This document shows, one piece after another, positions 12,119 through 43,466 of a stretch of DNA of 43,466 nt (position 1 is its first letter; each line of letters begins with the position of its first letter). This DNA comes from Bacteroidales bacterium (lineage in GTDB: Bacteria; Bacteroidota; Bacteroidia; Bacteroidales; WCHB1-69): the NCBI GenBank assembly GCA_024400775.1, contig JAKSMF010000002.1, forward strand, positions 1 through 43,466, given 5' to 3'. The notes beneath the pieces were generated by a model. That model was not told the origin of the DNA. It saw only the letters and a program-made list of their open reading frames with translations, and did no database searches. A program made the translations under genes and the position numbers.

Positions 12119-12119
12119 C

Positions 12120-13207: not shown

Positions 13208-13250
13208 CGTATTATTTTTCATTCGACAATAAAATGATTTTTTTCATAAA

Positions 13251-28189: not shown

Positions 28190-28204
28190 CAGGAAGTAAA
28201 AAAT

Positions 28205-28236
28205 AATTTTCAATTTTCAACTTTCAATTTTAAAAG
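28205..28236 (+). repeat. TTCAA-word element, copy 4
   Basis: aattttcaattttcaactttcaattttaaaag encodes the last residues (LKLKVEN) and the stop (28210-28212) of the PatB-like gene. Confidence 0.8.
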
Positions 28237-29385: not shown

Positions 29386-29406
29386 TTCGAAAGTTTTTTC
29401 GGGCCG

Positions 29407-29414
29407 CAAAGATA
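29407..29414 (-). promoter_or_regulatory. -7 box (TATCTTTG on the minus strand) for the PatB/Fe-S operon
   Basis: The + strand reads caaagata, 22 nt upstream of the ATG at 29385. Confidence 0.55.
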
Positions 29415-29417
29415 CAA

Positions 29418-29464
29418 CTTTTTGAATTGAAAATTGAGAGTTGAAAATTGAAAATTAGGTCGGA
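29418..29464 (-). repeat. TTCAA-word element, copy 5 (inverted orientation)
   Basis: The reverse complement reads tccgacctaattttcaattttcaactctcaattttcaattcaaaaag. Together with copy 4 it brackets the PatB-like gene as an inverted pair. Confidence 0.8.
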
Positions 29465-29598
29465 GGACAAAGGTCAGAGGTCAAAGTGTCGGAGGTCGGA
29501 AGAATTTTGCACTTCGCCCTTCCTGCCTAAAAAACGATATGCGAAACGTAAATAATTCATTATCCATTATTCATCATCTATTAATTAAAAACTTTGTG

Positions 29599-29606
29599 TA
29601 ACTTTG
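29599..29606 (+). promoter_or_regulatory. -7 box TAACTTTG upstream of the 29623 operon
   Basis: Exact TAnnTTTG match, 17 nt upstream of the ATG at 29623. Confidence 0.6.
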
Positions 29607-29622
29607 CGCCTTAGTTCATATT

Positions 29623-30423
29623 ATGCGAAAAATATTACAACTTATTGTATTACTGAGTGTTATAGTTTTTTTTGCGGGGTGTTCCGCGAAGGAAAACGAA
29701 GGCGACAAGCATTCCGATAGCATTGCCATCAGCGGGCAGCTGAAGGGTGCGGAAGGGCGTACGCTTTATTTGCACCACCTTTCCGTGGATACGCTGAGCG
29801 TGGGCGGAGGTGAATATATCGGTTTGAGTAATAATGCGATACAAGGTGGAAACTTTTCGCTCGTCTGTAAACCCGACAATGACGAACCTGCATTTTACCG
29901 TATCGGTTTTAGCGCGCAGAACAGTATTACGACGTTGGCGAAGCGTGGGGAAAACATCAACATAAAGTTTACGAAAGTGGATACGCTTTGTCGCGAATAC
30001 ACGGTGACGGGCGGTAAGGACGCTCAGCTGATGTGCGAACTGGACCAGCATCTGAGCTGCTTTATTGATTCGGCGGAGCAGCTGTTGTTGTGGTATGAAT
30101 TTACCGATGATGACAGCGTACATGCGACGGTAAACAATGCCTATAATATTATTAAAGGTCATTATACCAGTTATTTACGTGATTTTATTGCAAAAAATCC
30201 GAAATCGCTGGCGACGATGGCCGCTTTTTACCAAAAATACCAAAACAGTACATTTTTTGATGAGGCCCGCGATTTGGCGTTGTTGGAGCAGATTTATAAA
30301 AATCTGCGCAAAGCGCATCCGAAGAATGAAAATGTGGTGTGGCTTTCAAAGCGGATTTCATTTATCAAAGAAAATTTGAAAAACGAACAAAATCAGGACG
30401 AAATTAGTTCCATAAATAAATAA
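29623..30423 (+). CDS. Lipoprotein, DUF4369-like N-terminus (hypothetical)
   Basis: 266 aa. Lipobox VFFAGCS, and ISGQLKGAEGRTLYLHHLS resembles the beta-sandwich found N-terminal to TlpA-like proteins. No thioredoxin domain is present. Confidence 0.5.
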   Translation: MRKILQLIVLLSVIVFFAGCSAKENEGDKHSDSIAISGQLKGAEGRTLYLHHLSVDTLSVGGGEYIGLSNNAIQGGNFSLVCKPDNDEPAFYRIGFSAQNSITTLAKRGENINIKFTKVDTLCREYTVTGGKDAQLMCELDQHLSCFIDSAEQLLLWYEFTDDDSVHATVNNAYNIIKGHYTSYLRDFIAKNPKSLATMAAFYQKYQNSTFFDEARDLALLEQIYKNLRKAHPKNENVVWLSKRISFIKENLKNEQNQDEISSINK

Positions 30424-30444
30424 TTAACATTAAAAAAAAGAAAC

Positions 30445-32211
30445 ATGAAGAAGATTTTTAGTCTTTTAGCAGTTGTTTTGATTGCTTTTCTCGCATTTGG
30501 CGTAAAGAGTGCGAATGCGCAGAACGAACCCATTTTTGCGGAAGATTTCAGTGCGGTTACCGGTAGCGGCACGCAGCAGTGTGAGGCCAGCGGTACTGCT
30601 TTCAATTCCACCACAATGGGCGAAGTTCTTCCGGGTTGGAGCGGTAACAAGGTTTATCCCGCCAACGGGAAGGTGAAACTGGGTACCAGTTCAGTCAATG
30701 GTGAGTTGCAGACTCCCGCTATCGACTTGAGCAGCTACGGCAGCATCCGCATCGTTTTCCAGGCCAGATCTTGGAATGGCAATGATGCCACCACGATGAC
30801 GGTTTATGTAAACAGCACCGCTTACACGGTTGAAGGTTTGCCGAACACCGGAACCACTTCGGACGTGCAGTGTGATTTGGAGACTTTTGAAATCATGGCC
30901 AGCGGCGGCGGCGCTACCACCATCCGTTTCGTGGCTTCTCCGCGTGCCTTCATCGACAACGTAGCCATCTATGCAGCTACCGAGCCGACGATTTCCGTTA
31001 TGGGCAACACCACTTTCAACAACGTTTCCGTAGGTCAGGCCTGCAACACCACTTTGGTTGCCAAAGGTTTCAACCTGCTTCCCGGCTCTACCACCGTTGC
31101 TTTGACCGGTGACAGCCAGTTTACCACCACCACCACTTCCATCGTGAACGATCTGTTGATGGACGAAGCCGGCGTTAACATCCCGGTTGCCTTCAGCGCA
31201 AATGCCGCTGGCGACTACTCCGCTACTTTGTCATTCAGCAACAGCGATTTGGCTGAACCGATTACGGTTGAATTGACCGCTCACGTTATTTCCGTTAACG
31301 AAATTCCCGCTATCGACCAGTTGCGCGCCCTCATCGACAACAGCGATGTCACCGCCAACGTTACCGATACCGTTTTCTACAAATACACTGGTCATGCTTA
31401 CATCACCCAGGTTTTCCAGGAAGGCAGCTATACCAAATGGATGCAGGATGCGACCGGCGCCATCCAGATTTACGATCCTGACGGATTGTTGGCTAATGTG
31501 ACTTACGGTCAGGAAATCACCAATGTGGTTGGCCTTTTGAGCAACTATTATGGTTATACCGAATTTAATGTTCAGGCTGGCATTTCCAACAGCGACATCA
31601 ACGCATTCCCGTCATCCGTTACCGAACCCATCGTAGTTACGTTGGCGCAGCTGCAAGATCAGGACTACATGGATGGTATTCAGGCACAGTTGATTAAGTT
31701 GGAAGGTGTGACTTTCGAAGCCACCGGCAACTTCGCAAACAAAACCCGTTATGTGGTTAGTCAGAATGGTGTAACCGATACCGCTGTCTATATCAACAGC
31801 ACGTACGACACTTATTACAACTTCCCGATTCCGACCGGCACGGTTGACGTTATCGGTGTAAATGTTCGTTCTTCTGCTTACAGAACCCCCACTTCTACCG
31901 GTAGCGACCGTGTAGCTTCACGTTACTACATTTGTCCGCGCGGCGATGGTTGGTCAACCAGCATTGCAGAAAACGAAATGGTAGAGGTTAAGGTTTTCCC
32001 GAACCCGACCAGCAGCGACGTAACGATTGCCATTGACGCTCCGGCAACGCAGGTAGCCATCTACAACATGATGGGCGAACTCGTTGACCGTCAGGCTATG
32101 AACGCCGGTGTCAGCACTGTTAAGATGAGCCATTTGATGAGCGGTGTCTATTTCCTCCGCATCTTCAATGATGACCAGTTGGTTGGCACTTCCAAAGTGG
32201 TGAGACAGTAA
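30445..32211 (+). CDS. T9SS-secreted hypothetical surface protein
   Basis: 588 aa with signal MKKIFSLLAVVLIAFLAFGVKSANAQ. C-terminus VKVFPNPTSSDVTIAI...GVYFLRIFNDDQLVGTSKVVRQ. Starts 21 nt after the lipoprotein gene. Confidence 0.8.
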   Translation: MKKIFSLLAVVLIAFLAFGVKSANAQNEPIFAEDFSAVTGSGTQQCEASGTAFNSTTMGEVLPGWSGNKVYPANGKVKLGTSSVNGELQTPAIDLSSYGSIRIVFQARSWNGNDATTMTVYVNSTAYTVEGLPNTGTTSDVQCDLETFEIMASGGGATTIRFVASPRAFIDNVAIYAATEPTISVMGNTTFNNVSVGQACNTTLVAKGFNLLPGSTTVALTGDSQFTTTTTSIVNDLLMDEAGVNIPVAFSANAAGDYSATLSFSNSDLAEPITVELTAHVISVNEIPAIDQLRALIDNSDVTANVTDTVFYKYTGHAYITQVFQEGSYTKWMQDATGAIQIYDPDGLLANVTYGQEITNVVGLLSNYYGYTEFNVQAGISNSDINAFPSSVTEPIVVTLAQLQDQDYMDGIQAQLIKLEGVTFEATGNFANKTRYVVSQNGVTDTAVYINSTYDTYYNFPIPTGTVDVIGVNVRSSAYRTPTSTGSDRVASRYYICPRGDGWSTSIAENEMVEVKVFPNPTSSDVTIAIDAPATQVAIYNMMGELVDRQAMNAGVSTVKMSHLMSGVYFLRIFNDDQLVGTSKVVRQ

Positions 32212-32248
32212 TACTATATTATAAGGCATCCTTTCGGGGATGGAAAGA

Positions 32249-32285
32249 GGGTCCGGGGCGCAGGAGCGTTTCGGACCCTTTTTTT
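32249..32285 (+). terminator. Rho-independent terminator
   Basis: Stem gggtccg(32249-32255)/cggaccc(32272-32278) followed by T7. Confidence 0.8.
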
Positions 32286-32443
32286 GTGAGAGATGAGAGA
32301 TGAGGTGATAAGAGATAAGAGATAAGAGAAGCGAGATGAGAGGTGAGATGGGAGAAGGGAGATGGGAGATGAGAGAAAAGGACCTCCGTCTTTCCTGCTT
32401 ACTGCTTACTGCTTACTGCTTATTATTTACTGCTTCCTGCTTG
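32279..32443 (+). repeat. Purine-word block (gagatgagag/gataagaga/gggagat) followed by a pyrimidine-word block (cttactg x3-4)
   Basis: 32279-32382 holds a single C (at 32332). 32383-32443 is G-poor with a 7-bp period ctgcttactgcttactgcttactgctt. Confidence 0.85.
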
Positions 32444-32534
32444 TAAATGCTTGATTTTCAATGGTGCAAATCTTAAAAATATATAAATTGTTGAAAAAAT
32501 GTTGAAAAGTCGGTGCGATTTAAAAAAATATATG

Positions 32535-32542
32535 TATTTTTG
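32535..32542 (+). promoter_or_regulatory. -7 box TATTTTTG with no adjacent ORF
   Basis: Same gtatttttgcagcc context as the glnS promoter. The next ATG-initiated ORF starts 293 nt downstream. Confidence 0.5.
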
Positions 32543-32544
32543 CA

Positions 32545-32770
32545 GCCTCAAATTGACTAATTATCTCATGTTGTTGTTGTTGAAATAGTTCTACTCCGTA
32601 ATTTATTGATACAAAAAGCGTTTTCTGCTTTAACTTGTCCTGAAATCTCGCAAATTTTAAGACCGCAAGTTAAGTACGAAATGCACGCGTTTGATACGTG
32701 GGCTTTTCTTATTTGCGGTCAGGTATGCGAGAACCTAGGACATATAAGCTAAATAAGGTCCACGTTTTTT
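32545..32770 (+). ncRNA. Candidate structured RNA or long leader (~225 nt)
   Basis: Nested helices ctcgca(32647-32652)/tgcgag(32726-32731) and gaccgcaa(32661-32668)/ttgcggtc(32713-32720). Ends at T6 (32765-32770). No ORF; no known RNA family recognised. Confidence 0.3.
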
Positions 32771-32834
32771 GTTATCTACAAACATTGAAGAAATTGCCGG
32801 TGGGCCTTCGGCGTTTATAGGTAAAAAGCCAAAC

Positions 32835-33035
32835 ATGAAAATAATCTCGCAACTGATTGTTCTGGTTTTATGGTCGAATCTTATATATGTACTCCGAAAG
32901 GGGGACAGGTGGATTGGTTCTGGTAATGAGTTTGCCTTGGTCCCGCCCCGTGTGGAGAAAGATTGTAAAATTTTGCAATTCGCGGTGCGCCGTGTGATTG
33001 CCGATTCGGCTATGTCTTCTATTCAGTTTGTGTAG
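32835..33035 (+). CDS. Small hypothetical membrane protein (66 aa)
   Basis: MKIISQLIVLVLWSNLIYVL forms one predicted TM helix. It sits between a promoter box and a terminator-like hairpin, and its coding status is uncertain. Confidence 0.3.
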   Translation: MKIISQLIVLVLWSNLIYVLRKGDRWIGSGNEFALVPPRVEKDCKILQFAVRRVIADSAMSSIQFV

Positions 33036-33044
33036 AAAATATAG

Positions 33045-33114
33045 GAAGGGCAGGGTGATGTTGACCTTTATTTTGGGACTTTTTTAGGTCGGACGTCCTC
33101 TCCCTTCTTTTTTT
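33045..33114 (+). terminator. Compound hairpin plus T7
   Basis: Outer stem gaaggg(33045-33050)/cccttc(33102-33107), inner stem gacct(33063-33067)/aggtc(33086-33090), then T7 (33108-33114). Confidence 0.5.
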
Positions 33115-33120
33115 ATAAAA

Positions 33121-33128
33121 TAACTTTG
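33121..33128 (+). promoter_or_regulatory. -7 box TAACTTTG upstream of the giant ORF
   Basis: Exact TAnnTTTG match, 84 nt upstream of the ATG at 33212. The last ~45 nt of the leader are G-free and AT-rich. Confidence 0.6.
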
Positions 33129-33211
33129 TGCTTGTGAAAAAATGGCATCCATTTGGGTACGTGGGGAAAAAACAACTTTTTAATATAAATATAAAATTAT
33201 ATATAATTTCT

Positions 33212-36200
33212 ATGGGCAACTGTACGATGTTTAAGAACGAAATGAACCGACAGCAGAAACCGATGCGTAGCCGCCAACTGAAGGGTGCGGCTTTCACCTT
33301 TTTGATGCTTATGGCCTTGTTCTTCCCAAGCGTGCTGCCGGCGCAGGTGGCGGTGCCGTTTACCCAGCGTACCTCACAGTATTCGCCAGATCAAGCTGTC
33401 TACCATTTGCAGGGTGATTTCACGATGATTGGCAATACTAATATGGTGGACCCTAACGGTGGCAACACGAATGATGTCAATGCCATGCGTTGGAACAACA
33501 TTGATGCTGCTAATGGGGCGGTAACCAACTCTACTTCTGCCGAGCTGAAGTTCTCTACCGAACGCGGCGCCAATCCCGAATGTACCCGCGTGGTGTATGC
33601 CGGGCTGTACTGGGTGGGCCGCCACGATACCCGTAACGATCCGGCTCCTGAAAGAAGGGTGTTGCGCACCGTTACTCTTCATAACGGCGAAAGGGAAGGG
33701 TCGATCTCTGTTAGCATATCGCTGCCGGACCCAAGCGGTCGCACACGAATTACTAATCTGAGTTCAGGCACTAGTTCTGGACATAAAGTCATCCAATATC
33801 AATTTAGCCAAAATAACACGGTTGTCTCAACTCCCTATATTAACATAGAAAGATATTCCAATGGTGCTCGCTATGCTATCCGTATGAATTCCATGAACAC
33901 GGGGAATGACGGTGCTGCTATTTATAATGACATGCAGTGGAGCTCTGGCACATATCAGATGCGAAATATCACCAGTTTAAGTGCAGGGCAGGGGAGCAGT
34001 GATACTTATAGAGCTAACAACCCGCTGCCGATTCAGATTGCGCAGGTGGGCGATACGATTTACATGCTTACTTCCGTGCATTGGAATAATACTAGCAGCA
34101 ATATAAATAATGATTATTATGTAACCCTTCAGGTTTTGGTTCCCGAAGAGGGATACGCTGAGCCGCGTCGTAAGGTGAAATTCAGACACGAGGATGGTAC
34201 CTATACGCAAGTGACGGCTGCTCAGGGAAATGTTTTTTTCCCAACGATTCCATCAAATGCTCCTAACACTATCAATGAATCAGATTACTATTATGGCATG
34301 TATACTGCGTACGCGGAGGTTACCGATATTGTGCAGGAGTATGGCGAAGGTAACTACTATGTGGCCGACATAGTTTCCGATCTATCTAATGTCAGTAATA
34401 ATCCTATTGGTAAATTGGGCGCATGGACGCTGGTAGTCATTTATGAAAATACGATGATGAAGTGGCGCGACATTACGGTGTTTGATGGCTGGGCCTTTAC
34501 AGGCGGTGCAAACCCAAATACGGATGTAGCTATCTCGGGTTTCCGAACCGTGCAGGTGGGCAAGGTTGGTGTGAAGTTGGGTATGGCGGTAATGGATGGA
34601 GATAGAGGTTCTAGTACGGACAAAGTATACATTCAGAAACTGAATACAGACGAGTATCAGCAGTTGCTTAATCCGAGTTCTGATTTATATAGCACAAGTG
34701 ATGACAATTTTTTCCAATCCGTTATATATACTCCGGAAAATGCGGCTCGTAATCCAAGACAGACCAACAACTACGGTATTGATATTGTCGTAATGGATGT
34801 GCCCAACGAGAACAATTCGGTGATGGCGAACGAGCAGACAAGCACCCGTTTCCGTTATGCTTCAACAAGAAGGGACAACTATGCGGCCTTCTTGTATGTG
34901 ATGGGGGTAGATGCCTACATTCCGGACGCGCAGGCCATAGACGCGGTGATGGAAAACGCTTCCGCCGTTTATGACCCAGATATGGACGTGTGGGTTTCGC
35001 ATCCGGGCGACACCGTAACCTTTACCATTAAGGTTCACAACTACGATGTGGAAGACATTCGCGACGCGATGGTAACGCTGCCTATGCCACCTACCGTTGA
35101 GTTTTATGAGTTGGAGGCCGAATATTCCGACGGCCGCACCGGTGAGTTCTACTTTGATCCGTTAGAAGGAGTGAACGGAACAGCGCATTGGAGCATCGAC
35201 TATTTACCGGCGGGCTATCCCGACTCTGTCTGGGCCACTTTCAAGCTCCATTGCTATATCACACGCGACTGTTATGTGCTGGCTTCTACTTCAGAAGAGT
35301 GTTTGCTTGACCTCGTGGTTAATGGTACGTTGTCGGGCACTTCGGTCATCAACGGCGTTTGTTTTGAACACCCCTTTATTCAAGGTTTCCAACAGGATGG
35401 AGTTTGTAGAGGAGCGGCTATTGCGGAGAGTCTGCGTGTGGTCATCGACCGTGCGGACTATGTACGCAACCATTGCGACTGCAGCAATGGGGGGGGCACA
35501 TTCAACACCGAGTGTTATAAAAACCGGAGTATCGGCTTCTGTTTGTCGGATGGCGATGTTGTGCCGTTTGATAAGGTGGCGAAATATTATCCGGATGGCA
35601 CCCGTTTTTATTTGGGCAGTGACCGCAGTGTGGAATACACCTATGCCACTGGTTTTCCGGCGGCGGCGCAGAGCACGTCGGTAGTGGCCGTATTGCCCAC
35701 CAACAGCAGTTGCGAGTCCAGTCTCACGTTGGTGCAGACCATTTCTTTCGATACGATTACGTTGCCTGCTTTCGTCAGCAATCCGGTGGAATACTGTATG
35801 AATGACGAACCCCGGCCGTTGTCGGAGTCCATTGTCATTCCGGATACCTCCATCACCAACTACGGTGCGCAGGTAATCTTTTTCAAAAGCCATCCGGGTG
35901 ACGATCCGCTGCATCCGGATGTGCCGGCGTATTCCGACATTACGCCCAGCACCAGCGCGGTGGGCATTACCAGCTACTGGGTGGTGCAAATTGCGACAGC
36001 TCCGGGTATGGAGTGCTACCACTCCACTCCGATGAAGCTTGAGGTGTTGGTAAAGAGTCCGCTCACCATTTCCAGCGATGTGGAGAGCCCGTCGTGTGTG
36101 GGCGTGCCGGTTAATTTCACTCCGGATGTTGTGGGAGGAGAATACGACATTCCTGAAGAAATCTTACCATATGTATATATAAATAACCAGACGAGTGTGG

Positions 36201-39200
36201 CCACTTTGTCGGGTACGGCGCCTGCCGGCACCTATACTTTCTCGTACACGGCGCCGCCGTCAACCGACCCCGATGGCTGTCCGCATGCTTTAACGCAGGC
36301 CATCACGCACACGGTGACCACGATTTCTGCCGGTGGACATATTATCCCGCTCAATCCGGGCTCCATTTGTCAGGGTTCTCCGGTTCCTGATTTTCGAATT
36401 GACCAGATGGCAGGCCGTGTGGTGAGATGGGAATATCGAAAAGGTACGGATCCATGGCAGGTCATCCCCAACAACACAACGCGGATAAACCAATCGAATC
36501 TGCCTGAGTTAACTCAAGGTACCTACCAGTTCAGAGCCCTCGTGCAGAGTGGAGATTGTGAACCGACTTATTCCGATACGTCATCGCTGACGGTATCAAA
36601 CTATGTCGCTGAGGCTGCGCCTACGGGCGGAGTGCAATATTTTTGCGTGGGTTCTGAAGTTACTTTGAGTAACCCTGACAATTCGGGCACATACAATTGG
36701 TACACTTCCGAATATGGCGGCGAGCCCGATAATGCGAACCGCACCTTTGAAATGACCGAAGCTTGGGAGCAACGCTATGTTTCCCAGCGCAGCCATATCG
36801 GTGACAATGTTTATTGCGAAAGCCAGCGAGCTTTGGTAGAAGCCCGTCCGTATTTCAATGCAGGTGCTATTCGCAACGGGCAGCAGGTGGTTTGCGGAAC
36901 CGGTACCATCAACACGATTGGTTCCGCCGATGATGCCGCGGCCACTGTGGGGGTAACCGGTTATAACGGTGCCGCGCCCACGTTTACTTATCACTGGTAT
37001 ATGTCGAAAAACGGAGGCGCTGAAACCAGCTTGTCAGCTACCACGGCCACGTTGAATCCCGCTACGTATGTCAGCGGAAACGGCACTTATACGTTCCGCC
37101 GTACGGCCTCCTTCAGACTTCAAACTGGTGTTTATGGAAATGGTAATCCCCGATATACAAACTGCGGGGAGCTTCCCTCCGACGGCACCTACAAGTTGAT
37201 ATTGGGAGTTCCGGATGCGACCATAGCAACGCCTGAAAATACGGTATTATGTCATGATGGCAGCATTCAGCTAACGTTGACTGCTCCATTTTCTTCATTG
37301 TTTTCTTATCAGTGGTATCGAAACGGTACGGCCATTATCGATGCCAACGGTTCTAATTATACGGCTACTGCGTCGGGCAACTACACCGTAAAGGTTACCG
37401 ACCGGGCCAGCGGCTGTAATGCTACTTCCAGCACGCCGATAACGCTCACCGAAGACAATACGTCACCAGTAGTTTCACAAAGCACAATCAGTACAGAAAT
37501 TACAAGCTGCTCCATCACCGCCCTGCCTGCGGCATATACTACGGTGGCAGAGTTGGAAAGCGGTTTGCACGTCAGTATCAGCGATAATCATACGTCTGAT
37601 GCCGATTTGGAAGTTTCCCACGCGGATGACACCACATCTACAGTATGTCCGTTTGTGGTTACGCGTACCTACACCATTGCCGACGAATGCGGCAATGAGG
37701 CCACCATCGAACAGACTTTTACCATCCAAAATGAAACAACTCCGGTCATTACGGTTGCTTCACAAAACAATCCTGCCGGCGCTTGCAATCCGACGAGCAT
37801 CACCGCACCGACCTTCACGGTAACGGATGTGTGTGCGGACACTCCGACACCCACCGTAAGTACGACAGGACCTACGGGCACCGGCTGTGCCAAGAGCCAG
37901 ACTTGGACGGCCACCTACACCAGCGTGTGCGGCGTAGAGGCCACTCCGGTTGAAGTGACCTATTCTTGGAAAGAAGATGCTGAAAAGCCAACAATCGGTA
38001 CGATTGCCGCGCAGGATGCAACGCCCGCTGGCAGTTGTAAATACAAAATCCCGGGTCTGACAGATGTGGTGAGAAACGTATCCTCCGACAACTGCACGGC
38101 TGGCGATGATTTGGCCGTCAGTCAAAATATTGCCGCTAATACGGAATATGTGCAGACAAATTCCGAACAGAACATCAACGTCACGGTTACCGTAACCGAT
38201 GCCTGCGGCAACGAGCAGACCAAGACGGTGGTGGTGAAGATTCCGGCCAAGGTGACGGCTAATGTCACTTCCACGACGAACATCGACTGTTACGACGGTG
38301 AGACTGGCGCCATCGAACTGACGGCCACCGGCGGCACACCGGACTATACGTATTCCTGGACGGGTCCGAATTCCTATACTTCGACCGATGAAGACCTTAC
38401 CAGCCTGAAAGCCGGCACTTACGCAGTCACCGTAACGGACGACAACGGTTGTACGGCAACGGCCAATGCAACATTGACGCAGCCGGCCAGCGACATCAGC
38501 ATAACCCTCACTCCTACGAACGTGCTCTGCAACGGCAAGGAGACCGGCGCCATCACGGCCACCGTTACCGGCGGCACACCCGACTACGACTACGAATGGG
38601 GCACCGGCGCCACGACGGCCACCGTTTCCGGCCTCTCAGCCGGCGAATACACCGTGACCGTCACTGACAATAAGGGCTGTGAGAAGGAGGCATCCGTCAC
38701 CATTACCGAGCCCGCCACGGCGGTGAACATCACCACCATCAATAAAACCAACGTGCTCTGCAAGGACGCAGCCAACGGAACCGCGGAAGTGGTGGCCGAA
38801 GGCGGTACTTTGGCAGCAGGCCATACATATAATTATATATGGAGCAACGATGCCACCACGGCATCCATCAGCAATCTGGCTCCGGCAACCTACACCGTGA
38901 CCGTCACCGACGACAACGAATGCGAGGCAACGGGCGAAGTGAAAATCACCGAGCCTACGGCGCTGACGCTGACCACGGAGGAATCCAACGTCAGTTGCGC
39001 GGGCTCATCCAACGGCAGCGTGAACGTGACCGTCAGCGGCGGCACGAGCCCGTACACCTATGCCTGGAGCGGCGACGCCACCTCTTCTGAGGAAGACCTT
39101 GAGGATTTGGGCGGCGGCACCTACACCCTGATTGTCACCGACCACAACGGCTGTACGGTCACTGAGACCATCGAAATAGAAGAGCCCGACGTGCTTTCTT

Positions 39201-42200
39201 TGGGACTTTCTCCAGTTTCAGAAACCTGCGACGGCGGCGATGGTAAGATTACCGCAGCGGCCACGGGCGGCACCCAGTTCGACCTCGGCGGTGAAAATCC
39301 GTACTATCTATACTCTTGGTACAGAAAAACTTCCGCTACCGACTCCGTTTTGATTGCAAGCAATGTGACACAAATTGACACTTTGTCGGCAGGTAACTTC
39401 ACGGTAGTAGTGAAGGATGCCAACGGCTGCGAAGCGCAGGCATCCGTAACCTTGAAACTTGACAATCCGTTGGCCATCAACACCACATTGTCGGCCAACC
39501 CGACCATCTGTAGCGGTGGCTCATTTTCGTTTGCACCGGAAGACGGCGAGGACGGCAGCGTTCCGGATGGAACACTTTATTCCTGGGAAGCTCCTGTAGT
39601 AGAAAACGTCTCCAACACCCATGCCGGCGTTAACCAGTCAACCATCCACGACGAGGGCATCGTCTATACCGGCACCGCACCCTCTGTGGATATTCCTTAC
39701 AACGTGGTCGCCACCTACGGCGAAATCTGCCAGAACTCCACCACCGTCACGGTAACCGTGAGCGCCACGGTGAACGGTAACATGACCATTGCGCTGACCA
39801 ACGACACCGTCTGTCCGAATGTCGGCACGAAGACTTTGACCGCCACCTTAGGCAACCTGACCAACAATTACGATATCACTTGGACATTCAACGGCTCTGA
39901 GACAACACAATCCCGCAACCAGAGCGAGACTACGCCGACCTTGAATGTCACCATTCCTTCCGACAACTGCAATGTTGTATATCCGTACACGGTTTCTGTG
40001 GAGGACGAACTTCATTGTAAGAATTCAAAGACCGGCAACATCGTTGTCAGAATTCCGGACTGGAATATTAGTGAAGCCAATGGCAGCAAAACTGTTGCCT
40101 GTCCTTCCGCTGCAGTTCCTCCGACACTTCCGACCGTTACGGACGGCTGCGGCAATACACTGACTCCGCAATCCATCGGTTTCGATCCTGAAACAGACGA
40201 TCCTGTTACCTGCAGTGGCACCGTTGAGTACAAATATCGTTACACTGCTTGCGACAACAGCTACAAGGATTGGACTTATACCTATATTATTAAAGACTCT
40301 ATCGCTCCTGTCTTGGAGGACTGCAGCGGTTTGGACGAAGAACTCACCGCTACCGACTGCGAATTCACCGTTCCTGACTTCGAGGATGACGTGCTGGATC
40401 TGGCCTCCGACAACTGTACGGTGGCCGAATACGTGCAGAGTCCGGCAGCCGGCACCGTGATTACGGCGACAACGGATGTGACGGTCTATGTAAAAGATGC
40501 CTGCGGCAACGAAAGCGCGCACCGCACCATCACGGTGACGGTTCCCGCGCCGGTACAACTGGCAGAAGTGACGGCTGAGCACGTGGACGTTTTGTGTAAA
40601 AACGATGCCACGGGCAGCTTCAAGGTAAGCGCTACGCAGGGCAAGTCTCCATACACCTATACCTTAGGAACCACGAGCAACAGCACCGGCGAGTTCAGCG
40701 GTTTGGAAGACGGCACCTACACCGTGACCGTGACCGACGCAAACGGCTGTACCAACACGGTTGATGTGACCATTAACGAACCTACCGCCGTATTGACGGC
40801 TTCCGTTCCCGCCCCCACAGCTATTTGTAACGGTGGCTCGCAGACCCTTACAGTAGAGGTGGGCGGCGGCACAGCGGGATACGGCTATCAGTGGAGCGAC
40901 GGTTCTAACACCAACTCCATCACCGTCAGTCCTACCGCGACGACGACCTATTCCGTCACTGTCACTGACGAACACGAATGTACCGCAAGCGACAGCAAGA
41001 CGCTGACGGTTTACAGCCTGCCCATTGTGGAACTCGACGGTGTGAGCGACCTCTGTCCGAACGTGGGCAGCACCAATCTGACGGCAGAAATCACCACAAC
41101 TTCTGCTGCTCCTTACAAATACGAGTGGACCGGTATGACGGTGACACCGGCCAGTACCGCCGGCTCAACCGCAACCAGCAACACGGTTTCTGCTACGATT
41201 CCGACTACCTGCGGCGCCAGCTACACGGTGACCGTGACGCTGACCGACAACCACGGCTGTACAGTGACCGACGATGCTACCGTTACCGTGAAGACGCCGG
41301 CTACCCCGAGCATCGCGTTGGCTGATGGCACGGATGCCTCCACCAACCTCGGCTGCAACCCGGCAAGCATCCCGACCGTAACGAAAGACAATTTCGTTGT
41401 TACGGACGAATGCGACGCGAGCGCGATAGCTACTGTTACACCTGGTGACGAACAGGTTGACGGCTGCACGCACAGCAAGACCTGGACGGCAAGCTACACA
41501 AATTCTTGCGTAACGGCTGCTACATCCAAGACCGTAACCTATACCTGGACGGTGACCACCGCTCCCGAAGTAACCCCGAGCGACGAACTCGCCGAATCGG
41601 GCACCGTAATGGACTGCAATTGGGATTATGAAAATGAAGGACCGACCTCTGCAGACTTCAACTTGGTATCTGGAGACTGTGAGACGGATCCTGACGTTAC
41701 CGTAACCAGCAAGGTTACCGGCGATTGCACCAAGACCGGCATCTGGACCGCTAAGTACGAAAATCAATGCGGACAGAAGGACTCTGTCAAAGTGACCTAC
41801 ACGTGGACGGCTGATGAGGAAGGTCCGGCCATCACGGGCACATTGGAAGACATCAACGTAGCGGGCTGCGACGAAACCGCCGTTCCTGCCGCTGCGACTA
41901 CCGTGGCCGCATTGGAAGAAATGGGCGTCGAGATCAGCGACAATTGTTCGAGTACGTTCACGGTTTCTTCTGAAGATGCGGACGCTTCTGGCGCCTGCGT
42001 CAAGACGGTGGTGAGGACCTACACCGTCACCGATGCCTGCGGAAACTCATCTACGGCAACGCAGAACATCATCATCACGCCGGCAGACTTTATCTCCAAC
42101 ATGCCGGAACCTGGCGAGAAAACCGTGTCCTGCGCCGCCTCCGTAGGCACACCGGCCACGCCCACGGTTGAGGATGCCTGCGGCAATGTCATTACCGATA

Positions 42201-43466
42201 TCGAACTGAAGAGCAAGACCGACAATCCTTCCTGCGAGGGCACTGTCGTTTACACATACACCTATACCGACTGCGCTGGACACAGCCACGACTGGACCTA
42301 CACCTACACGATTGACCTGCCGATAGTGGAGATGCCAGCCGACGGGCGCGACACGGTGCCTTGCGAAATCGACGCCCAGCACACGCCCACGCCGCCGGAA
42401 CTGACGGACGCTTGCGGCCGTACCCTTCAGGTGGTCCAGGTGGGTGATCCAGTATCCACGGTCGGAACGAACGGTCGCGGTACTGTGACCTACACCTTTG
42501 AATACACCGACTGCACGGGCGAGGATTACGATTACGAGTGGCAGTACGTATATTATGTGATTCCGGACGCGTTCACGCCCCGAACCAACGGCTCAAGCAA
42601 TATCTCTTGCCTGTCGGATGCGGTCACCCCGACCCTTCCGGCTATCACGGTCTGCGGTGAAAGCGTCGAGCTGACACTCGTCTCCAAGGTTGACAGCACG
42701 GAGAACGGCTGCGGCAAATACATCTACACCTACGGATATACCGTCAACGATGTCGAATATACATGGAAATACACCTATAACGTATCACCCGCGGACTTCG
42801 CGGACCTGATGCCGGACAATGGCGGCAGCACGGTTTCCTGCGAGGCTGCGGCAGTGGCTCCGACCGCTCCGGTGGTTGAGAACGCCTGCGGCACGGCTGT
42901 CACGATTTCTGAACCCGTGGTGAGCGGCACCTACGAAGGCTGCGAAGGCACAATCATTTATACCTACACCTACAGCGACTGTGCGGGCCACAGCCACGAC
43001 TGGACCTACACCTACATCATTAAACACGATGCCAACCCGACCCAAGTCGGCACTCCGGTGGACACCGCTTCCACTGTCGAATGCGTCTCCGCAGCTACCG
43101 TTCCCACAGTTCTTCCTGTAGTGAAGGATGCCTGCGGCAACGTGGTGGTGCATGCTCCCGCGCCCGAGGTTGGCGGCACCTACACGGACTGCGAAGGCAC
43201 GAAGACCTACACCTATACCTACGAAGACTGTGCGGGCAAGCAGTTCGTCTGGACCTACACCTACACGATTGGACATTCAACTGCTCCGGCCGAAGTGGGC
43301 GGACCTGTAGCGACAAGGGATACGGTGGAATGCGAGAGCGCGGCCGCCGCACCCGCAACGCTTCCTGTGGTGAAGGATGTGTGCGGCAATGTGTTGGATG
43401 CTCCCGAACCCGAGGTTGCCACTGACATCCACGGCTGCGAAGGCACGGTGGTTTACACCTATACCT
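33212..43466 (+). CDS. Giant cell-surface protein (partial, more than 3418 aa): DUF11-like + HYR-like + SprB repeats + unassigned four-Cys modules; 3' end outside the window
   Basis: Frame 2 is open from the stop at 33116-33118 to the window end; no frame-2 + ORF terminates here in the track. Alternative ATG at 33227. Signal-like AAFTFLMLMALFFPSVLPAQ. SprB-type repeats at 38249-39469 and 40553-40783; DUF11-like segment around 35000-35270. Confidence 0.9.
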   Translation, partial: MGNCTMFKNEMNRQQKPMRSRQLKGAAFTFLMLMALFFPSVLPAQVAVPFTQRTSQYSPDQAVYHLQGDFTMIGNTNMVDPNGGNTNDVNAMRWNNIDAANGAVTNSTSAELKFSTERGANPECTRVVYAGLYWVGRHDTRNDPAPERRVLRTVTLHNGEREGSISVSISLPDPSGRTRITNLSSGTSSGHKVIQYQFSQNNTVVSTPYINIERYSNGARYAIRMNSMNTGNDGAAIYNDMQWSSGTYQMRNITSLSAGQGSSDTYRANNPLPIQIAQVGDTIYMLTSVHWNNTSSNINNDYYVTLQVLVPEEGYAEPRRKVKFRHEDGTYTQVTAAQGNVFFPTIPSNAPNTINESDYYYGMYTAYAEVTDIVQEYGEGNYYVADIVSDLSNVSNNPIGKLGAWTLVVIYENTMMKWRDITVFDGWAFTGGANPNTDVAISGFRTVQVGKVGVKLGMAVMDGDRGSSTDKVYIQKLNTDEYQQLLNPSSDLYSTSDDNFFQSVIYTPENAARNPRQTNNYGIDIVVMDVPNENNSVMANEQTSTRFRYASTRRDNYAAFLYVMGVDAYIPDAQAIDAVMENASAVYDPDMDVWVSHPGDTVTFTIKVHNYDVEDIRDAMVTLPMPPTVEFYELEAEYSDGRTGEFYFDPLEGVNGTAHWSIDYLPAGYPDSVWATFKLHCYITRDCYVLASTSEECLLDLVVNGTLSGTSVINGVCFEHPFIQGFQQDGVCRGAAIAESLRVVIDRADYVRNHCDCSNGGGTFNTECYKNRSIGFCLSDGDVVPFDKVAKYYPDGTRFYLGSDRSVEYTYATGFPAAAQSTSVVAVLPTNSSCESSLTLVQTISFDTITLPAFVSNPVEYCMNDEPRPLSESIVIPDTSITNYGAQVIFFKSHPGDDPLHPDVPAYSDITPSTSAVGITSYWVVQIATAPGMECYHSTPMKLEVLVKSPLTISSDVESPSCVGVPVNFTPDVVGGEYDIPEEILPYVYINNQTSVATLSGTAPAGTYTFSYTAPPSTDPDGCPHALTQAITHTVTTISAGGHIIPLNPGSICQGSPVPDFRIDQMAGRVVRWEYRKGTDPWQVIPNNTTRINQSNLPELTQGTYQFRALVQSGDCEPTYSDTSSLTVSNYVAEAAPTGGVQYFCVGSEVTLSNPDNSGTYNWYTSEYGGEPDNANRTFEMTEAWEQRYVSQRSHIGDNVYCESQRALVEARPYFNAGAIRNGQQVVCGTGTINTIGSADDAAATVGVTGYNGAAPTFTYHWYMSKNGGAETSLSATTATLNPATYVSGNGTYTFRRTASFRLQTGVYGNGNPRYTNCGELPSDGTYKLILGVPDATIATPENTVLCHDGSIQLTLTAPFSSLFSYQWYRNGTAIIDANGSNYTATASGNYTVKVTDRASGCNATSSTPITLTEDNTSPVVSQSTISTEITSCSITALPAAYTTVAELESGLHVSISDNHTSDADLEVSHADDTTSTVCPFVVTRTYTIADECGNEATIEQTFTIQNETTPVITVASQNNPAGACNPTSITAPTFTVTDVCADTPTPTVSTTGPTGTGCAKSQTWTATYTSVCGVEATPVEVTYSWKEDAEKPTIGTIAAQDATPAGSCKYKIPGLTDVVRNVSSDNCTAGDDLAVSQNIAANTEYVQTNSEQNINVTVTVTDACGNEQTKTVVVKIPAKVTANVTSTTNIDCYDGETGAIELTATGGTPDYTYSWTGPNSYTSTDEDLTSLKAGTYAVTVTDDNGCTATANATLTQPASDISITLTPTNVLCNGKETGAITATVTGGTPDYDYEWGTGATTATVSGLSAGEYTVTVTDNKGCEKEASVTITEPATAVNITTINKTNVLCKDAANGTAEVVAEGGTLAAGHTYNYIWSNDATTASISNLAPATYTVTVTDDNECEATGEVKITEPTALTLTTEESNVSCAGSSNGSVNVTVSGGTSPYTYAWSGDATSSEEDLEDLGGGTYTLIVTDHNGCTVTETIEIEEPDVLSLGLSPVSETCDGGDGKITAAATGGTQFDLGGENPYYLYSWYRKTSATDSVLIASNVTQIDTLSAGNFTVVVKDANGCEAQASVTLKLDNPLAINTTLSANPTICSGGSFSFAPEDGEDGSVPDGTLYSWEAPVVENVSNTHAGVNQSTIHDEGIVYTGTAPSVDIPYNVVATYGEICQNSTTVTVTVSATVNGNMTIALTNDTVCPNVGTKTLTATLGNLTNNYDITWTFNGSETTQSRNQSETTPTLNVTIPSDNCNVVYPYTVSVEDELHCKNSKTGNIVVRIPDWNISEANGSKTVACPSAAVPPTLPTVTDGCGNTLTPQSIGFDPETDDPVTCSGTVEYKYRYTACDNSYKDWTYTYIIKDSIAPVLEDCSGLDEELTATDCEFTVPDFEDDVLDLASDNCTVAEYVQSPAAGTVITATTDVTVYVKDACGNESAHRTITVTVPAPVQLAEVTAEHVDVLCKNDATGSFKVSATQGKSPYTYTLGTTSNSTGEFSGLEDGTYTVTVTDANGCTNTVDVTINEPTAVLTASVPAPTAICNGGSQTLTVEVGGGTAGYGYQWSDGSNTNSITVSPTATTTYSVTVTDEHECTASDSKTLTVYSLPIVELDGVSDLCPNVGSTNLTAEITTTSAAPYKYEWTGMTVTPASTAGSTATSNTVSATIPTTCGASYTVTVTLTDNHGCTVTDDATVTVKTPATPSIALADGTDASTNLGCNPASIPTVTKDNFVVTDECDASAIATVTPGDEQVDGCTHSKTWTASYTNSCVTAATSKTVTYTWTVTTAPEVTPSDELAESGTVMDCNWDYENEGPTSADFNLVSGDCETDPDVTVTSKVTGDCTKTGIWTAKYENQCGQKDSVKVTYTWTADEEGPAITGTLEDINVAGCDETAVPAAATTVAALEEMGVEISDNCSSTFTVSSEDADASGACVKTVVRTYTVTDACGNSSTATQNIIITPADFISNMPEPGEKTVSCAASVGTPATPTVEDACGNVITDIELKSKTDNPSCEGTVVYTYTYTDCAGHSHDWTYTYTIDLPIVEMPADGRDTVPCEIDAQHTPTPPELTDACGRTLQVVQVGDPVSTVGTNGRGTVTYTFEYTDCTGEDYDYEWQYVYYVIPDAFTPRTNGSSNISCLSDAVTPTLPAITVCGESVELTLVSKVDSTENGCGKYIYTYGYTVNDVEYTWKYTYNVSPADFADLMPDNGGSTVSCEAAAVAPTAPVVENACGTAVTISEPVVSGTYEGCEGTIIYTYTYSDCAGHSHDWTYTYIIKHDANPTQVGTPVDTASTVECVSAATVPTVLPVVKDACGNVVVHAPAPEVGGTYTDCEGTKTYTYTYEDCAGKQFVWTYTYTIGHSTAPAEVGGPVATRDTVECESAAAAPATLPVVKDVCGNVLDAPEPEVATDIHGCEGTVVYTYT

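What the first reader, a model, noticed from the sequence alone, without database searches (positions are those of the whole stretch)
33212..43466. The 10-kb gap in the ORF track is a single open-ended giant ORF (more than 3418 codons)
From 33.3 to 43.4 kb the track lists only short, overlapping ORFs, none of them in + frame 2. Hand translation of frame 2 from ATG 33212 (or 33227) is uninterrupted to the last base. It starts with a signal-like N-terminus and a ~590-aa region I cannot assign (contains GAWTLVVIYEN...WRDITVFDGW). Next come a DUF11-like segment (HPGDTVTFTIKVHNYDVEDI), Cys-rich Ig-like segments and TxTxxDxCGN (HYR-like) modules. Five tandem SprB-type repeats follow (CxGxxxGxI..GGxxPYxYxW..GxYxVxVxDxxGC), with a sixth further on. 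The track most likely omits this ORF because it never reaches a stop in the window. The stop codon and any C-terminal sorting domain are therefore unseen. It is preceded by its own TAACTTTG box.
Basis: partly seen in the sequence, partly recalled or inferred. Interest (0 to 1): 0.8.

Follow-up and report, generated by a model that had tools for sequence, protein, structure and literature searches.

The report
Giant surface adhesin gene, cut short
The 10-kb "gap" is the first 3418 codons of one real, giant cell-surface adhesin-type gene of an uncultured gut or rumen Bacteroidales bacterium, cut off because the assembled contig ends inside its repeats; this is an ordinary kind of gene, but it starts with a widespread head domain that nobody has described.

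Summary
Confirmed. The frame starting at ATG 33212 has no stop codon through the last base (3418 codons). The other five frames have 39-201 stops. The window is a whole 43,466-nt MAG contig, so the ORF is cut by the contig end. An independent assembly of a sister strain carries the same ORF, also cut about 3408 codons in. dN/dS between the two alleles is 0.25, so this is a real coding gene.

Architecture, from the N-terminus:
- Sec signal peptide ending LPA|Q.
- A roughly 550-aa head: a conserved all-beta core split by a 180-aa insertion. It has no Pfam, NCBIfam or PDB match, yet 4395 representative clusters carry it, nearly always at the N-terminus.
- A DUF11-like domain.
- A Cys-rich Ig-like region.
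- At least 9 SprB-type units and at least 13 HYR_4C units.

I could not recover the C-terminus. Most head-family members end in a T9SS C-terminal domain (CTD). However, the closest collinear relative ends in HYR + Fib_succ_major. Sister strains that lack the giant gene keep a decaying HYR + Fib_succ_major remnant at this locus. The alleles are mosaic, and the head is the most diverged part.

Verdict: a new member of a known kind (a Bacteroidota fibrillar adhesin-like giant). Interest is modest.

The parts
32287..32442 (+). Purine-rich TGAGAGA 7-mer array (32287-32376) followed by a CTGCTTA 7-mer array (32395-32442). This is the left edge of the strain-variable segment: sister strains L008, L009 and L010 lose similarity to the window inside the first array.
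   Evidence: TRF rows. The blastn alignments of L008/L009/L010 stop at window 32314-32337. Junction sequences are shown.
33121..33128 (+). TAACTTTG, a candidate Bacteroidota -7 promoter box 84 nt upstream of the start codon.
   Evidence: 11 of 25 TAnnTTTG copies in the window lie within 120 nt upstream of gene starts in the right orientation, against 0.83 expected (p = 1.5e-10). Promoter function is inferred, not shown.
33212..43466 (+). The giant ORF: 3418 codons plus 1 base, open at the 3' end, which is the end of the contig.
   Evidence: An independent allele is open for 3016 readable codons in L006, with dN/dS 0.25.
33212..33343 (+). Sec (SPI-type) signal peptide, aa 1-44: a basic N-region, the hydrophobic stretch AAFTFLMLMALFFPSVL, then LPA|Q. 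The Gln at +1 fits the Bacteroidetes Q-rule.
   Evidence: Read from the sequence. The Q is invariant in alignment A4 and at least 90% conserved in A1. The Q-rule is described in PMC5837995. No signal-peptide predictor was available.
33344..33631 (+). Head domain core, N-terminal part (aa 45-140): FTQRTS..GDFTMIGNTN..NS[ST]SA..C..VYAGLYWxGR.
   Evidence: Core HMM domain 1, i-E 7.5e-40. BLAST split pattern. AF2 pLDDT is mostly 82-96.
33632..34165 (+). Insertion of about 180 aa within the head (aa 141-318). It is present only in a subfamily, is beta-rich and is modelled with lower confidence.
   Evidence: Many homologues align aa 44-140 directly to aa 319 onwards. pLDDT is 34-85.
34166..34993 (+). 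Head domain core, C-terminal part (aa 319-594): GAWTLVVIYEN..KWRDITVFDGW..GDRG..NFFQS..VDAYIP.
   Evidence: Core HMM domain 2, i-E 6e-89. 149 homologues. 4395 representative clusters. The core model on homologue P0030 has pLDDT 89.2 and pTM 0.84. No real PDB fold match.
35000..35281 (+). DUF11-like beta-sandwich (aa 597-690).
   Evidence: Pfam DUF11 E 0.0018, 19 bits, below the cut-off. DUF11 is significant in 11 of 50 homologues scanned. AF2 pLDDT is 84-90.
35309..37246 (+). Cys-rich Ig-like region (aa 700-1345) with matches to Ig_7 (the 'CHU_C-associated' Ig domain) and weak PKD-like matches.
   Evidence: Ig_7 E 4.9e-9 and 5.8e-6 / 4.6e-5. Part of the region has no family match (protein 1).
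37247..37453 (+). First SprB-type unit, about 68 aa (aa 1346-1414).
   Evidence: Self-built HMM, i-E 6.8e-23.
37586..38242 (+). Three HYR_4C-like units (aa 1459-1505, 1524-1586, 1624-1677).
   Evidence: Self-HMM i-E 2.5e-12 to 2.1e-9. Pfam HYR_4C.
38285..39463 (+). Five tandem SprB-type units (aa 1692-2084).
   Evidence: Pfam SprB E 1.3e-31 with 5 stretches. Self-HMM i-E 1.7e-29 to 5e-24. Regex matches.
39464..40087 (+). Stretch with no family match (aa 2085-2292).
   Evidence: No Pfam match for 39440-40111 (protein 5).
40088..40549 (+). One full HYR_4C unit (aa 2293-2360) followed by a DxCGN module (aa about 2402-2446) that my SprB-unit HMM picks up as a partial hit.
   Evidence: Self-HMMs. 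DxCGN at aa 2429. Pfam HYR_4C E 1.3e-18 and 3.2e-14.
40592..41296 (+). Three more SprB-type / PKD-like units (aa 2461-2695).
   Evidence: Self-HMM i-E 1.8e-25, 6.2e-22 and 1e-17. Pfam SprB is weak and K319L-like_PKD scores 2.6e-9.
41354..43465 (+). Array of nine HYR_4C units (aa 2715-3418). The last unit is cut at profile position 48 of 65 by the contig end.
   Evidence: Pfam HYR_4C E 2.5e-110 with 7 stretches. Self-HMM. DNA copies within the window are only 60-82% alike.

Best explanation
This is the 5' part (at least 10.25 kb) of one genuine giant gene in an uncultured Bacteroidales bacterium that has a type IX secretion system (T9SS). It encodes a secreted, fibrillar-adhesin-like cell-surface protein.

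Shown by computation:
- One uninterrupted reading frame, conserved under purifying selection in a second strain.
- A conserved start codon and a signal-peptide-like N-terminus.
- A compact, confidently modelled all-beta head domain. It belongs to a very large Bacteroidota family that is nearly always N-terminal and has no Pfam entry and no solved relative.
- A DUF11-like domain, then a long stalk of Ig-like, SprB-type and HYR_4C modules.
- The ORF stops being visible only because the contig ends inside the HYR_4C array.

Inferred:
- The protein is exported by Sec and cleaved after LPA, leaving an N-terminal Gln.
- It is displayed on the surface as a long stalk. [quoted passage not shown]
- The alleles are mosaics: blocks at 76-87% identity alternate with blocks at 96-100%. 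The head is 77-80% identical with pS 0.4-0.6, yet dN/dS stays at 0.13-0.28. This indicates recombination between old alleles, as expected for an exposed adhesin.

The unseen C-terminus (my estimates):
- About 50%: a classical HYR module plus a Fib_succ_major (C-type-lectin-like) domain.
- About 45%: a T9SS CTD, most probably type B (CHU_C) with a PorP/SprF-like partner gene downstream.
For: ORF statistics. The window is a whole contig. The independent Logan contig L006 carries the allele: 3408 aa called, running off its own end. It is collinear with the window over 28163-42241, has no stops in 3016 readable codons, and gives dN/dS 0.25 over 3002 codons with a mosaic identity profile. L003 matches at 99.1% through aa 578. 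The MGNCTMFKNEMNRQQK start is the same in 5 assemblies. Domain content.

Head family: 149 hits at 30-42% identity, none with a Pfam domain over that region. A profile search finds 4395 representative clusters, 1628 of them at E<=1e-30, with the head starting at residues 1-30 in most and protein lengths of 450-6499 aa. AF2 gives pLDDT 79.9 for the window head and 89.2 for the insertion-free core. Foldseek TM-scores are at most 0.25.

T9SS in this organism: six window ORFs carry Por_Secre_tail.

Family anchoring: the Flavivirga jejuensis 2312-aa member has head + HYR_4C + CHU_C and is followed by a PorP_SprF gene and two PorE-like genes. This matches the PorP/PorE anchoring model in PMC9143113.

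Fib_succ_major ending: P0403 (3074 aa) is collinear with the window protein over q310-2009 at 41.9% identity (1159 bits) and ends in PKD_5-HYR-Fib_succ_major. In sister strains L008 and L009, the DNA right after the GA-rich repeat is the last third of an HYR domain plus a full Fib_succ_major domain. It has no start codon and carries different frameshifts in the two strains.
Against: - The stop codon, the C-terminal domain and the downstream genes are not in the window, and I could not recover them.
- There are no transcript or protein data.
- Adhesive function of the head is inferred from position and architecture only. The fold search gives just weak jelly-roll themes (PNGase F, Cry toxin domains, PM2 P2).
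- About 73 of 77 recognisable C-termini in the head family look like T9SS CTDs and only 4 are Fib_succ_major. That count rests on ad hoc HMMs that did not separate type A from type B cleanly. It argues against the Fib_succ_major ending.
- If the protein does end in Fib_succ_major, its route across the outer membrane and its anchor are unexplained.
- The remnant in L008/L009 could derive from a different allele or gene than the one in the window.
Confidence: 0.8

Rival explanations
1. A canonical T9SS type B cargo protein. The unseen end is a CHU_C domain, a porP/sprF-like gene follows, and the protein is held on the surface by that PorP-like barrel with the head distal. This competes only with the Fib_succ_major sub-claim of the best explanation.
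For: Most head-family members with a recognisable C-terminus have a T9SS CTD-like end. L019 shows head + HYR_4C + CHU_C + PorP_SprF + PorE-like genes. Ig_7, the 'CHU_C-associated' Ig domain, is present in the window protein. The mechanism is described in PMC9143113.
Against: The closest collinear relative, P0403, and the 5857-6499-aa family giants end in Fib_succ_major without a CTD. The remnant at the same locus in sister strains is HYR + Fib_succ_major. HYR_4C giants elsewhere use type A, type B or Fib_succ_major ends interchangeably.
Confidence: 0.4
2. An orthologue of SprB, the mobile gliding-motility adhesin of Flavobacterium johnsoniae.
For: Giant size, SprB repeats and a Bacteroidota host with T9SS cargo genes.
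Against: The upstream gene is a T9SS type A cargo protein, not sprC or sprD, and is separated from the ORF by a 1-kb spacer with its own promoter box. Half of the visible repeats are HYR_4C. SprB repeats occur in many non-SprB proteins of the head family. The gene is absent from sister strains at 96-98% identity, which is unusual for a core motility adhesin. There is no evidence of gliding genes in this MAG.
Confidence: 0.07
3. A long open frame with no function: an assembly chimera, a collapsed repeat, or a decaying pseudogene.
For: The contig breaks inside a repeat array, and sister strains have lost the gene.
Against: An independent assembly from another sample is collinear over more than 9 kb of the ORF. 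There are zero stops in 3418 and 3016 codons, and dN/dS is 0.25 with pS up to 0.58. All segments match protein families in one frame. Repeat copies within the window are only 60-82% alike at the DNA level, so collapse within the window is unlikely.
Confidence: 0.03

Closest known systems
SprB of Flavobacterium johnsoniae (669-kDa gliding adhesin, T9SS type B CTD, SprF partner; PMC9143113)
   Same: A giant repetitive Bacteroidota surface protein with a Sec signal and SprB repeats (PF13573). Many head-family members carry the CHU_C type B CTD and a PorP/SprF neighbour.
   Different: There is no sprC/sprD context. The protein has large HYR_4C arrays. The C-terminus is unseen and may be Fib_succ_major. 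The gene is dispensable among close strains, and there is no evidence of gliding. Whether SprB itself has this head domain was not tested, because no SprB sequence was available in the tools.
P0403 / P0429 (3074-aa protein of an NCBI MAG; unnamed)
   Same: The closest whole-architecture relative: a single collinear alignment of q310-2009 to s315-2010 at 41.9% identity. It has the same head, the same SprB-type run, HYR_4C units and a similar MxxxTxFxNxMN N-terminus.
   Different: It is shorter and complete, ending in PKD_5-HYR-Fib_succ_major. Only 2 HYR_4C units are detected, against at least 13 here.
Flavivirga jejuensis 2312-aa protein (locus L019, NZ_JAUOEL010000006.1)
   Same: The same head core (E 1.4e-162 to my core HMM) and HYR_4C units.
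   Different: It lacks the 180-aa insertion and SprB units. It is complete, with a CHU_C C-terminus, and is followed by PorP_SprF and two PorE-like genes.
Fibrillar adhesins as defined by Monzon et al. (PMC8286594)
   Same: A terminal globular domain plus a long stalk of tandem Ig-like repeats. CHU_C and Por_Secre_tail are listed there as Bacteroidetes anchors.
   Different: The putative adhesive head is not one of the catalogued adhesive domains. SprB, HYR and DUF11 are not mentioned in that paper's main text. The anchor is unseen here.
C-terminal Fib_succ_major / DUF1566 C-type-lectin-like domains, some of which are DGR targets (PMC4159848; TIGR02145 in Fibrobacteres, PMC4704652)
   Same: This applies only if the predicted ending is right: an extracytoplasmic domain of about 187 aa at the extreme C-terminus.
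   Different: No reverse transcriptase or template repeat is present in the window. The domain itself is not in the window.

Membership tests
HYR_4C (PF23237) | Match to the Pfam profile above the gathering score | tested here: met
   361 bits against a cut-off of 27, 7 stretches in aa 2401-3418. Also 67 bits in aa 1601-2400. 13 units found with the self-HMM.
SprB repeat (PF13573) | Match to the Pfam profile above the gathering score | tested here: met
   108 bits against a cut-off of 28, 5 stretches. 9 full and 2 partial units of about 68 aa with the self-HMM.
DUF11 (PF01345) | Match above the gathering score | tested here: inconclusive
   19 bits against a cut-off of 24.6 at aa 597-674. 11 of 50 homologues scanned have a significant DUF11, best E 2.1e-14.
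Unnamed N-terminal head-domain family of Bacteroidota surface proteins (defined here) | Significant match to the core profile, located directly after the signal peptide | tested here: met
   Core HMM E 1.3e-126, in two pieces: aa 27-143 and 318-614. Invariant motifs are shared. The head starts at residues 1-30 in most of the 150 best representatives.
T9SS cargo protein | N-terminal Sec signal peptide | tested here: met
   Judged by inspection only: a basic N-region, a hydrophobic core, LPA|Q, and conserved Q-rule residue. No predictor was run.
T9SS cargo protein | C-terminal domain of type A (Por_Secre_tail/TIGR04183) or type B (CHU_C/TIGR04131) | not testable with these tools
   The C-terminus lies beyond the contig end. 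The weak internal Por_Secre_tail matches (17-23 bits) are below threshold and internal, so they are not a CTD.
T9SS cargo protein | The host has a T9SS | tested here: met
   Indirect evidence: six other ORFs in the window carry Por_Secre_tail above threshold. Core T9SS genes were not seen in the window.
SprB orthologue (gliding adhesin) | sprC-sprD-sprB-sprF operon context | tested here: not met
   The upstream gene is a 588-aa type A CTD protein, followed by a 1-kb spacer with its own promoter box. The downstream side is not visible.
SprB orthologue (gliding adhesin) | Type B CTD bound by SprF; gliding machinery in the genome | not testable with these tools
   The C-terminus and the rest of the genome are not available.
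Fibrillar adhesin (Monzon et al. 2021) | Long stalk of tandem repeat domains | tested here: met
   At least 22 Ig-like, SprB-type or HYR_4C units over aa 1346-3418.
Fibrillar adhesin (Monzon et al. 2021) | A recognised adhesive domain and a cell anchor | tested here: inconclusive
   The head has no known adhesive-domain match. The anchor is unseen.
DGR target protein | Variable region at the 3' end, with a cognate template repeat and reverse transcriptase nearby | not tested
   Raised only because Fib_succ_major domains can be DGR targets. None of the window ORFs scanned against Pfam is a reverse transcriptase. The 3' end is absent.

The most novel reading that the evidence does not exclude
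The gene belongs to a lineage of Bacteroidales giants (3,000-6,500 aa) built differently from classical T9SS adhesins. They have an undescribed, conserved double-beta-sandwich head at the N-terminus. At the extreme C-terminus they have a C-type-lectin-like Fib_succ_major domain instead of a T9SS sorting domain. Such a protein would be a two-ended binder, or would use an unknown export and anchoring route. It could be a DGR-diversified tip protein. It is also gained, lost and recombined between strains at a repeat-flanked hot spot.
Probability: 0.3. Interest if true: 0.55.

Novelty: new member of a known kind. Interest (0 to 1): 0.3.

Why it matters
- For annotation: a quarter of this contig is one gene that ORF listings and many gene callers drop or truncate. 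The same happens in every short-read assembly of these organisms, so the largest surface proteins of gut and rumen Bacteroidales are systematically under-reported.
- For biology: the head domain defines a very large family (4395 clusters at 50% identity) with no Pfam entry and no solved structure. It sits at the N-terminal end of fibrillar surface proteins, opposite the C-terminal anchor where one is present. This makes it a good candidate for a new adhesive or carbohydrate-binding domain, and for structure and glycan-binding work.
- For strain ecology: the presence/absence difference between strains and the mosaic alleles mark this locus as a strain-level surface-variation hot spot.
- If the Fib_succ_major ending is confirmed, it raises a concrete question: how do giant proteins without a CTD reach and stay on the Bacteroidales surface?

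Tried and rejected
1. Extending the ORF failed by every route.
- An exact 52-mer from the window end was not found in genome contigs.
- The search for related loci with the last 558 aa gave at best 47-64% identity in genome contigs and 50-63% in metagenome contigs. These are other species.
- A protein search with the last 290 aa gave at most 56% identity.
- A chimeric query (last 250 aa plus the L008/L009 remnant) gave no same-species hit. It did recover unrelated fragments that combine HYR_4C with Fib_succ_major: P0467, P0470 and P0485.
- Look-ups of neighbouring genes found no longer contig. L006 also ends about 3408 codons into the ORF.
- Tool behaviour: the search for homologous proteins never returned hits longer than about 1.75 times the query. 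This is why it shows no full-length giants.

2. Assigning the head by sequence failed. Pfam and NCBIfam gave nothing. phmmer against PDB gave only a chance hit at E 0.39. The profile against PDB gave nothing.

3. Assigning the head by fold failed. Foldseek against PDB, on both the window model and the cleaner core model, gave E>=7.8e-5 and TM<=0.25. The only recurring theme was tandem jelly-roll proteins such as PNGase F, Cry toxins and the PM2/PR772 capsid proteins. I do not treat this as homology.

4. Near-identical DNA repeats as the cause of the contig break: repeats inside the window are only 60-82% alike. The culprit must therefore lie downstream and is unseen.

5. Rfam scan of the 1.5-kb upstream region found only a chance lncRNA hit below threshold. 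The sigma-70 and terminator scans were not informative.

6. A conserved small upstream partner gene: the genes upstream of the L019 and L057 giants are only weakly alike (30% over 101 aa, E 0.006), and the window has no counterpart.

7. My ad hoc C-terminal HMMs did not separate type A from type B CTDs (24 overlaps). Only the combined figure should be used.
Full report
**Observation**

Translating window 33212-43466 in frame gives 3418 codons without a stop. Over the same stretch the other five frames carry 146, 154, 201, 39 and 134 stops. The nearest upstream in-frame stop is TAA at 33116, and ATG 33212 is the first ATG after it.

The ORF tool does not list ORFs that run off the source. That explains why only short overlapping ORFs appear between 33.3 and 43.4 kb.

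The window is a complete contig. The neighbouring proteins are on record from NCBI assembly GCA_024500545.1, and their longest contig is 43466 nt. The frame is therefore open because the assembly stops, not because of how the window was cut.

**Is it a real gene?**

Several independent short-read assemblies (Logan) carry the locus.
- L003 matches the window at 99.1% through aa 578.
- L006, from another sample, is collinear from the flanking genes through window position 42241, where the fetched locus ends.
- On the L006 contig the gene is called from the same Met with a 3408-aa product that also runs off the contig end. Two assemblies thus break at about the same place, inside the HYR_4C array.

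The L006 allele has no stop in its 3016 readable codons. Against the window allele, dN/dS is 0.25 over 3002 aligned codons. All five assemblies share the N-terminus MGNCTMFKNEMNRQQK. A chimera, a collapsed repeat or a pseudogene is therefore very unlikely. Repeats within the window are only 60-82% identical at the DNA level.

**Context**

The window is ordinary Bacteroidales chromosome. It encodes arginase, LysRS, GlnRS, thioredoxin, aminotransferases and an L,D-transpeptidase. It also has six ORFs with a type A T9SS sorting domain (Por_Secre_tail), so the organism uses a T9SS. The 90% clusters of its GlnRS and LysRS are named "Bacteroidales bacterium" MAGs. The nearest HYR_4C giants come from rumen and gut MAGs.

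The motif TAnnTTTG occurs at chance frequency in the window as a whole: 25 copies against 24.6 expected. But 11 of those 25 lie within 120 nt upstream of a gene start in the right orientation, against 0.83 expected (p = 1.5e-10). One of them is TAACTTTG at 33121-33128, 84 nt before the giant ORF. From my own knowledge, this is the Bacteroidota -7 promoter element. Its function here is inferred.

**Anatomy**

- aa 1-44: a signal-peptide-like N-terminus ending LPA|Q. The Gln is invariant in the family alignments, as the Bacteroidetes Q-rule predicts (PMC5837995).
BLAST and an HMM show a conserved core made of aa 44-140 plus aa 319-594. Many homologues carry this core as one contiguous piece. Here and in a subfamily it is interrupted by an insertion of about 180 aa.
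- aa 597-690: a DUF11-like domain. It is below threshold here (19 bits against 24.6), while 11 of 50 homologues scanned have a significant DUF11.
- aa 700-1345: a Cys-rich Ig-like region with Ig_7 matches.
- From aa 1346 onwards, HMMs I built from the protein itself find these repeat units:
  - SprB-type units of about 68 aa at 1346-1414.
  - Five tandem SprB-type units at 1692-2084.
  - Three more SprB-type units at 2461-2695.
  - HYR_4C units at 1459-1677 (three) and 2293-2360.
  - A run of nine HYR_4C units from 2715 to the end, the last one cut by the contig end.
- Pfam agrees: SprB E 1.3e-31 and HYR_4C E 2.5e-110.

**The head domain**

It has no Pfam or NCBIfam match and no sequence match to any PDB chain, either alone or as a profile. 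Yet it is a large family.
- A word-indexed search found 149 homologues at 30-42% identity in Marinifilum, Flavobacterium, Myroides, Sphingobacterium, Pedobacter and many MAGs.
- An exhaustive profile search of 1.84 billion representatives found 4395 clusters, 1628 of them at E<=1e-30.
- In most of the best 150, the domain starts within the first 30 residues. Those proteins are 450 to 6499 aa long.

AlphaFold models are confident: pLDDT 79.9 and pTM 0.72 for window aa 40-700, and pLDDT 89.2 and pTM 0.84 for the insertion-free core of homologue P0030. Both are all-beta.

Foldseek against the PDB finds nothing convincing. The best E is 7.8e-5 and TM-scores are at most 0.25. The only recurring theme is tandem jelly-roll or beta-sandwich proteins such as PNGase F, Cry toxin domains and the PM2/PR772 capsid proteins. 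I read the head as a compact double beta-sandwich of unknown specificity.

**How the family is attached**

Where the C-terminus is present, most members end in a T9SS sorting domain.
- CHU_C (type B) is found by Pfam in members of the first search.
- By eye and with ad hoc HMMs, about 73 of 77 recognisable ends look like T9SS C-terminal domains (CTDs). My HMMs did not separate type A from type B.

The Flavivirga jejuensis member (locus L019, 2312 aa) is a clean example. It has head + HYR_4C + CHU_C and is followed immediately by a PorP_SprF gene and two PorE-like (PD40 / CarboxypepD_reg / OmpA) genes. This is the arrangement proposed for non-mobile type B cargo anchored through PorP-PorE complexes (PMC9143113). 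In such proteins the C-terminus is at the membrane, so the N-terminal head is the distal tip. That is the layout of a fibrillar adhesin (PMC8286594).

**The unseen C-terminus of this gene**

Every attempt to extend the ORF failed. Two lines of evidence point away from a T9SS CTD.

First, the closest whole-architecture relative is P0403, a 3074-aa protein from an NCBI MAG. It aligns collinearly with window aa 310-2009 at 41.9% identity (1159 bits). It ends in PKD_5-HYR-Fib_succ_major with no CTD. The 5857-aa and 6499-aa family giants also end in a Fib_succ_major domain (Pfam-checked for the 6499-aa one).

Second, sister strains L008, L009 and L010 are 96-98% identical in the flanking genes. They lose similarity to the window inside the TGAGAGA repeat array at 32287-32376. 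Directly after that array, L009 carries the last third of a classical HYR domain (profile positions 51-81) followed by a complete Fib_succ_major domain (profile 1-187). This stretch has no start codon or signal peptide. It carries a frameshift in L009, and in L008 it has a different frameshift and a larger truncation.

The simplest reading is that these strains deleted the giant gene, from the upstream repeat to near its 3' end, and that what remains is the gene's tail. That predicts an HYR + Fib_succ_major ending for the window gene.

Against this stands the family-wide dominance of T9SS CTDs. The remnant could also derive from a different allele. I put the Fib_succ_major ending at about 50% and a T9SS CTD at about 45%.

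Fib_succ_major (TIGR02145) is an extracytoplasmic domain of unknown function, abundant in Fibrobacteres (PMC4704652). It is related to DUF1566, and some copies are targets of diversity-generating retroelements (PMC4159848). None of the window ORFs scanned against Pfam is a reverse transcriptase, so this remains only a lead.

**Allelic variation**

Between the window and L006 the flanking genes are 98.7% identical, but the giant gene is a mosaic.

| aa range | aa identity | Note |
|---|---|---|
| 1-594 (head) | 77-80% | pS 0.38-0.58, dN/dS 0.13-0.28 |
| 595-1394 | 98-99% | |
| 1395-1793 | 76-87% | |
| 1794-2393 | 96-100% | |
| 2394-2588 | 91% | |
| 2589-2986 | 79-87% | |

Short N-terminal fragments from other samples combine the signal peptide of one allele with the head of another. 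This pattern indicates recombination between old alleles that remain under purifying selection. Together with the presence/absence difference among strains, it is typical of exposed surface proteins.

**Comparison and verdict**

The gene works like a Bacteroidota fibrillar adhesin of the SprB/HYR type. It is not shown to be SprB.
- The upstream context is wrong.
- The gene is dispensable in close strains.
- The type B CTD and the SprF partner cannot be checked.

It is a new member of a known kind. Two points go beyond routine: the large, undescribed head-domain family, and the possibility that this lineage ends in a lectin-like Fib_succ_major domain rather than a T9SS signal. The corrections concern the number of SprB units, the status of DUF11, the split structure of the head, and the likely C-terminus.

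Noticed in passing
window 32287-32442; loci L008 5360-6085, L009 4054-4743, L010 4036-4140: Sister strains (96-98% identical in the flanks) lack the giant gene. Their similarity to the window ends inside a TGAGAGA 7-mer array. It is followed by a frameshifted remnant with no start codon, consisting of part of an HYR domain plus a full Fib_succ_major domain. This looks like a deletion hot spot bounded by a simple repeat.
   Followed up: partly
window 33212-34993 compared with L001, L002, L005 and L006: The head-domain alleles are mosaic. L001 and L005 share the window's signal peptide but diverge from about aa 37. L006 has the L002-type signal peptide, an L001-type first 140 aa, and window-type sequence after that. 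This suggests recombination breakpoints inside the head.
   Followed up: partly
window 16853-18001 (- strand): This 382-aa ORF has its Por_Secre_tail match in the middle (aa 91-163) rather than at the C-terminus. It may have a mis-called start, be two genes, or be a rearranged cargo gene.
   Followed up: no
window 7739-14138 (- strand): Three consecutive T9SS type A cargo genes (1459, 336 and 295 aa). None has any other recognisable domain.
   Followed up: no
L019 7709-8227 and L057 9423-9986: Small genes (172 and 187 aa) with signal peptides lie directly upstream of two head-family giants. They are weakly similar to each other (30% over 101 aa, E 0.006). They may be a lineage-specific partner. 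The window has no counterpart.
   Followed up: partly
L057 10001-29500 (ENA ERZ19651133, 508-kb contig): A complete 6499-aa head-family protein with Cadherin-like, Big_9 and Ig_7 domains, about 17 SprB-type units and a Fib_succ_major end. It has no porP-like neighbour. Phage-like genes (Amidase_2, primase, ClpP) follow downstream.
   Followed up: no
window 1537-1950 (- strand): A DUF559 (Vsr-like endonuclease fold) gene sits between the arginase and a mechanosensitive-channel gene.
   Followed up: no
tool behaviour: the search for homologous proteins returned no hit longer than about 1.75 times the query length (620 aa gave at most 1084; 290 gave at most 499; 492 gave at most 851). Giant relatives only appeared in the exhaustive representative search.
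   Followed up: yes
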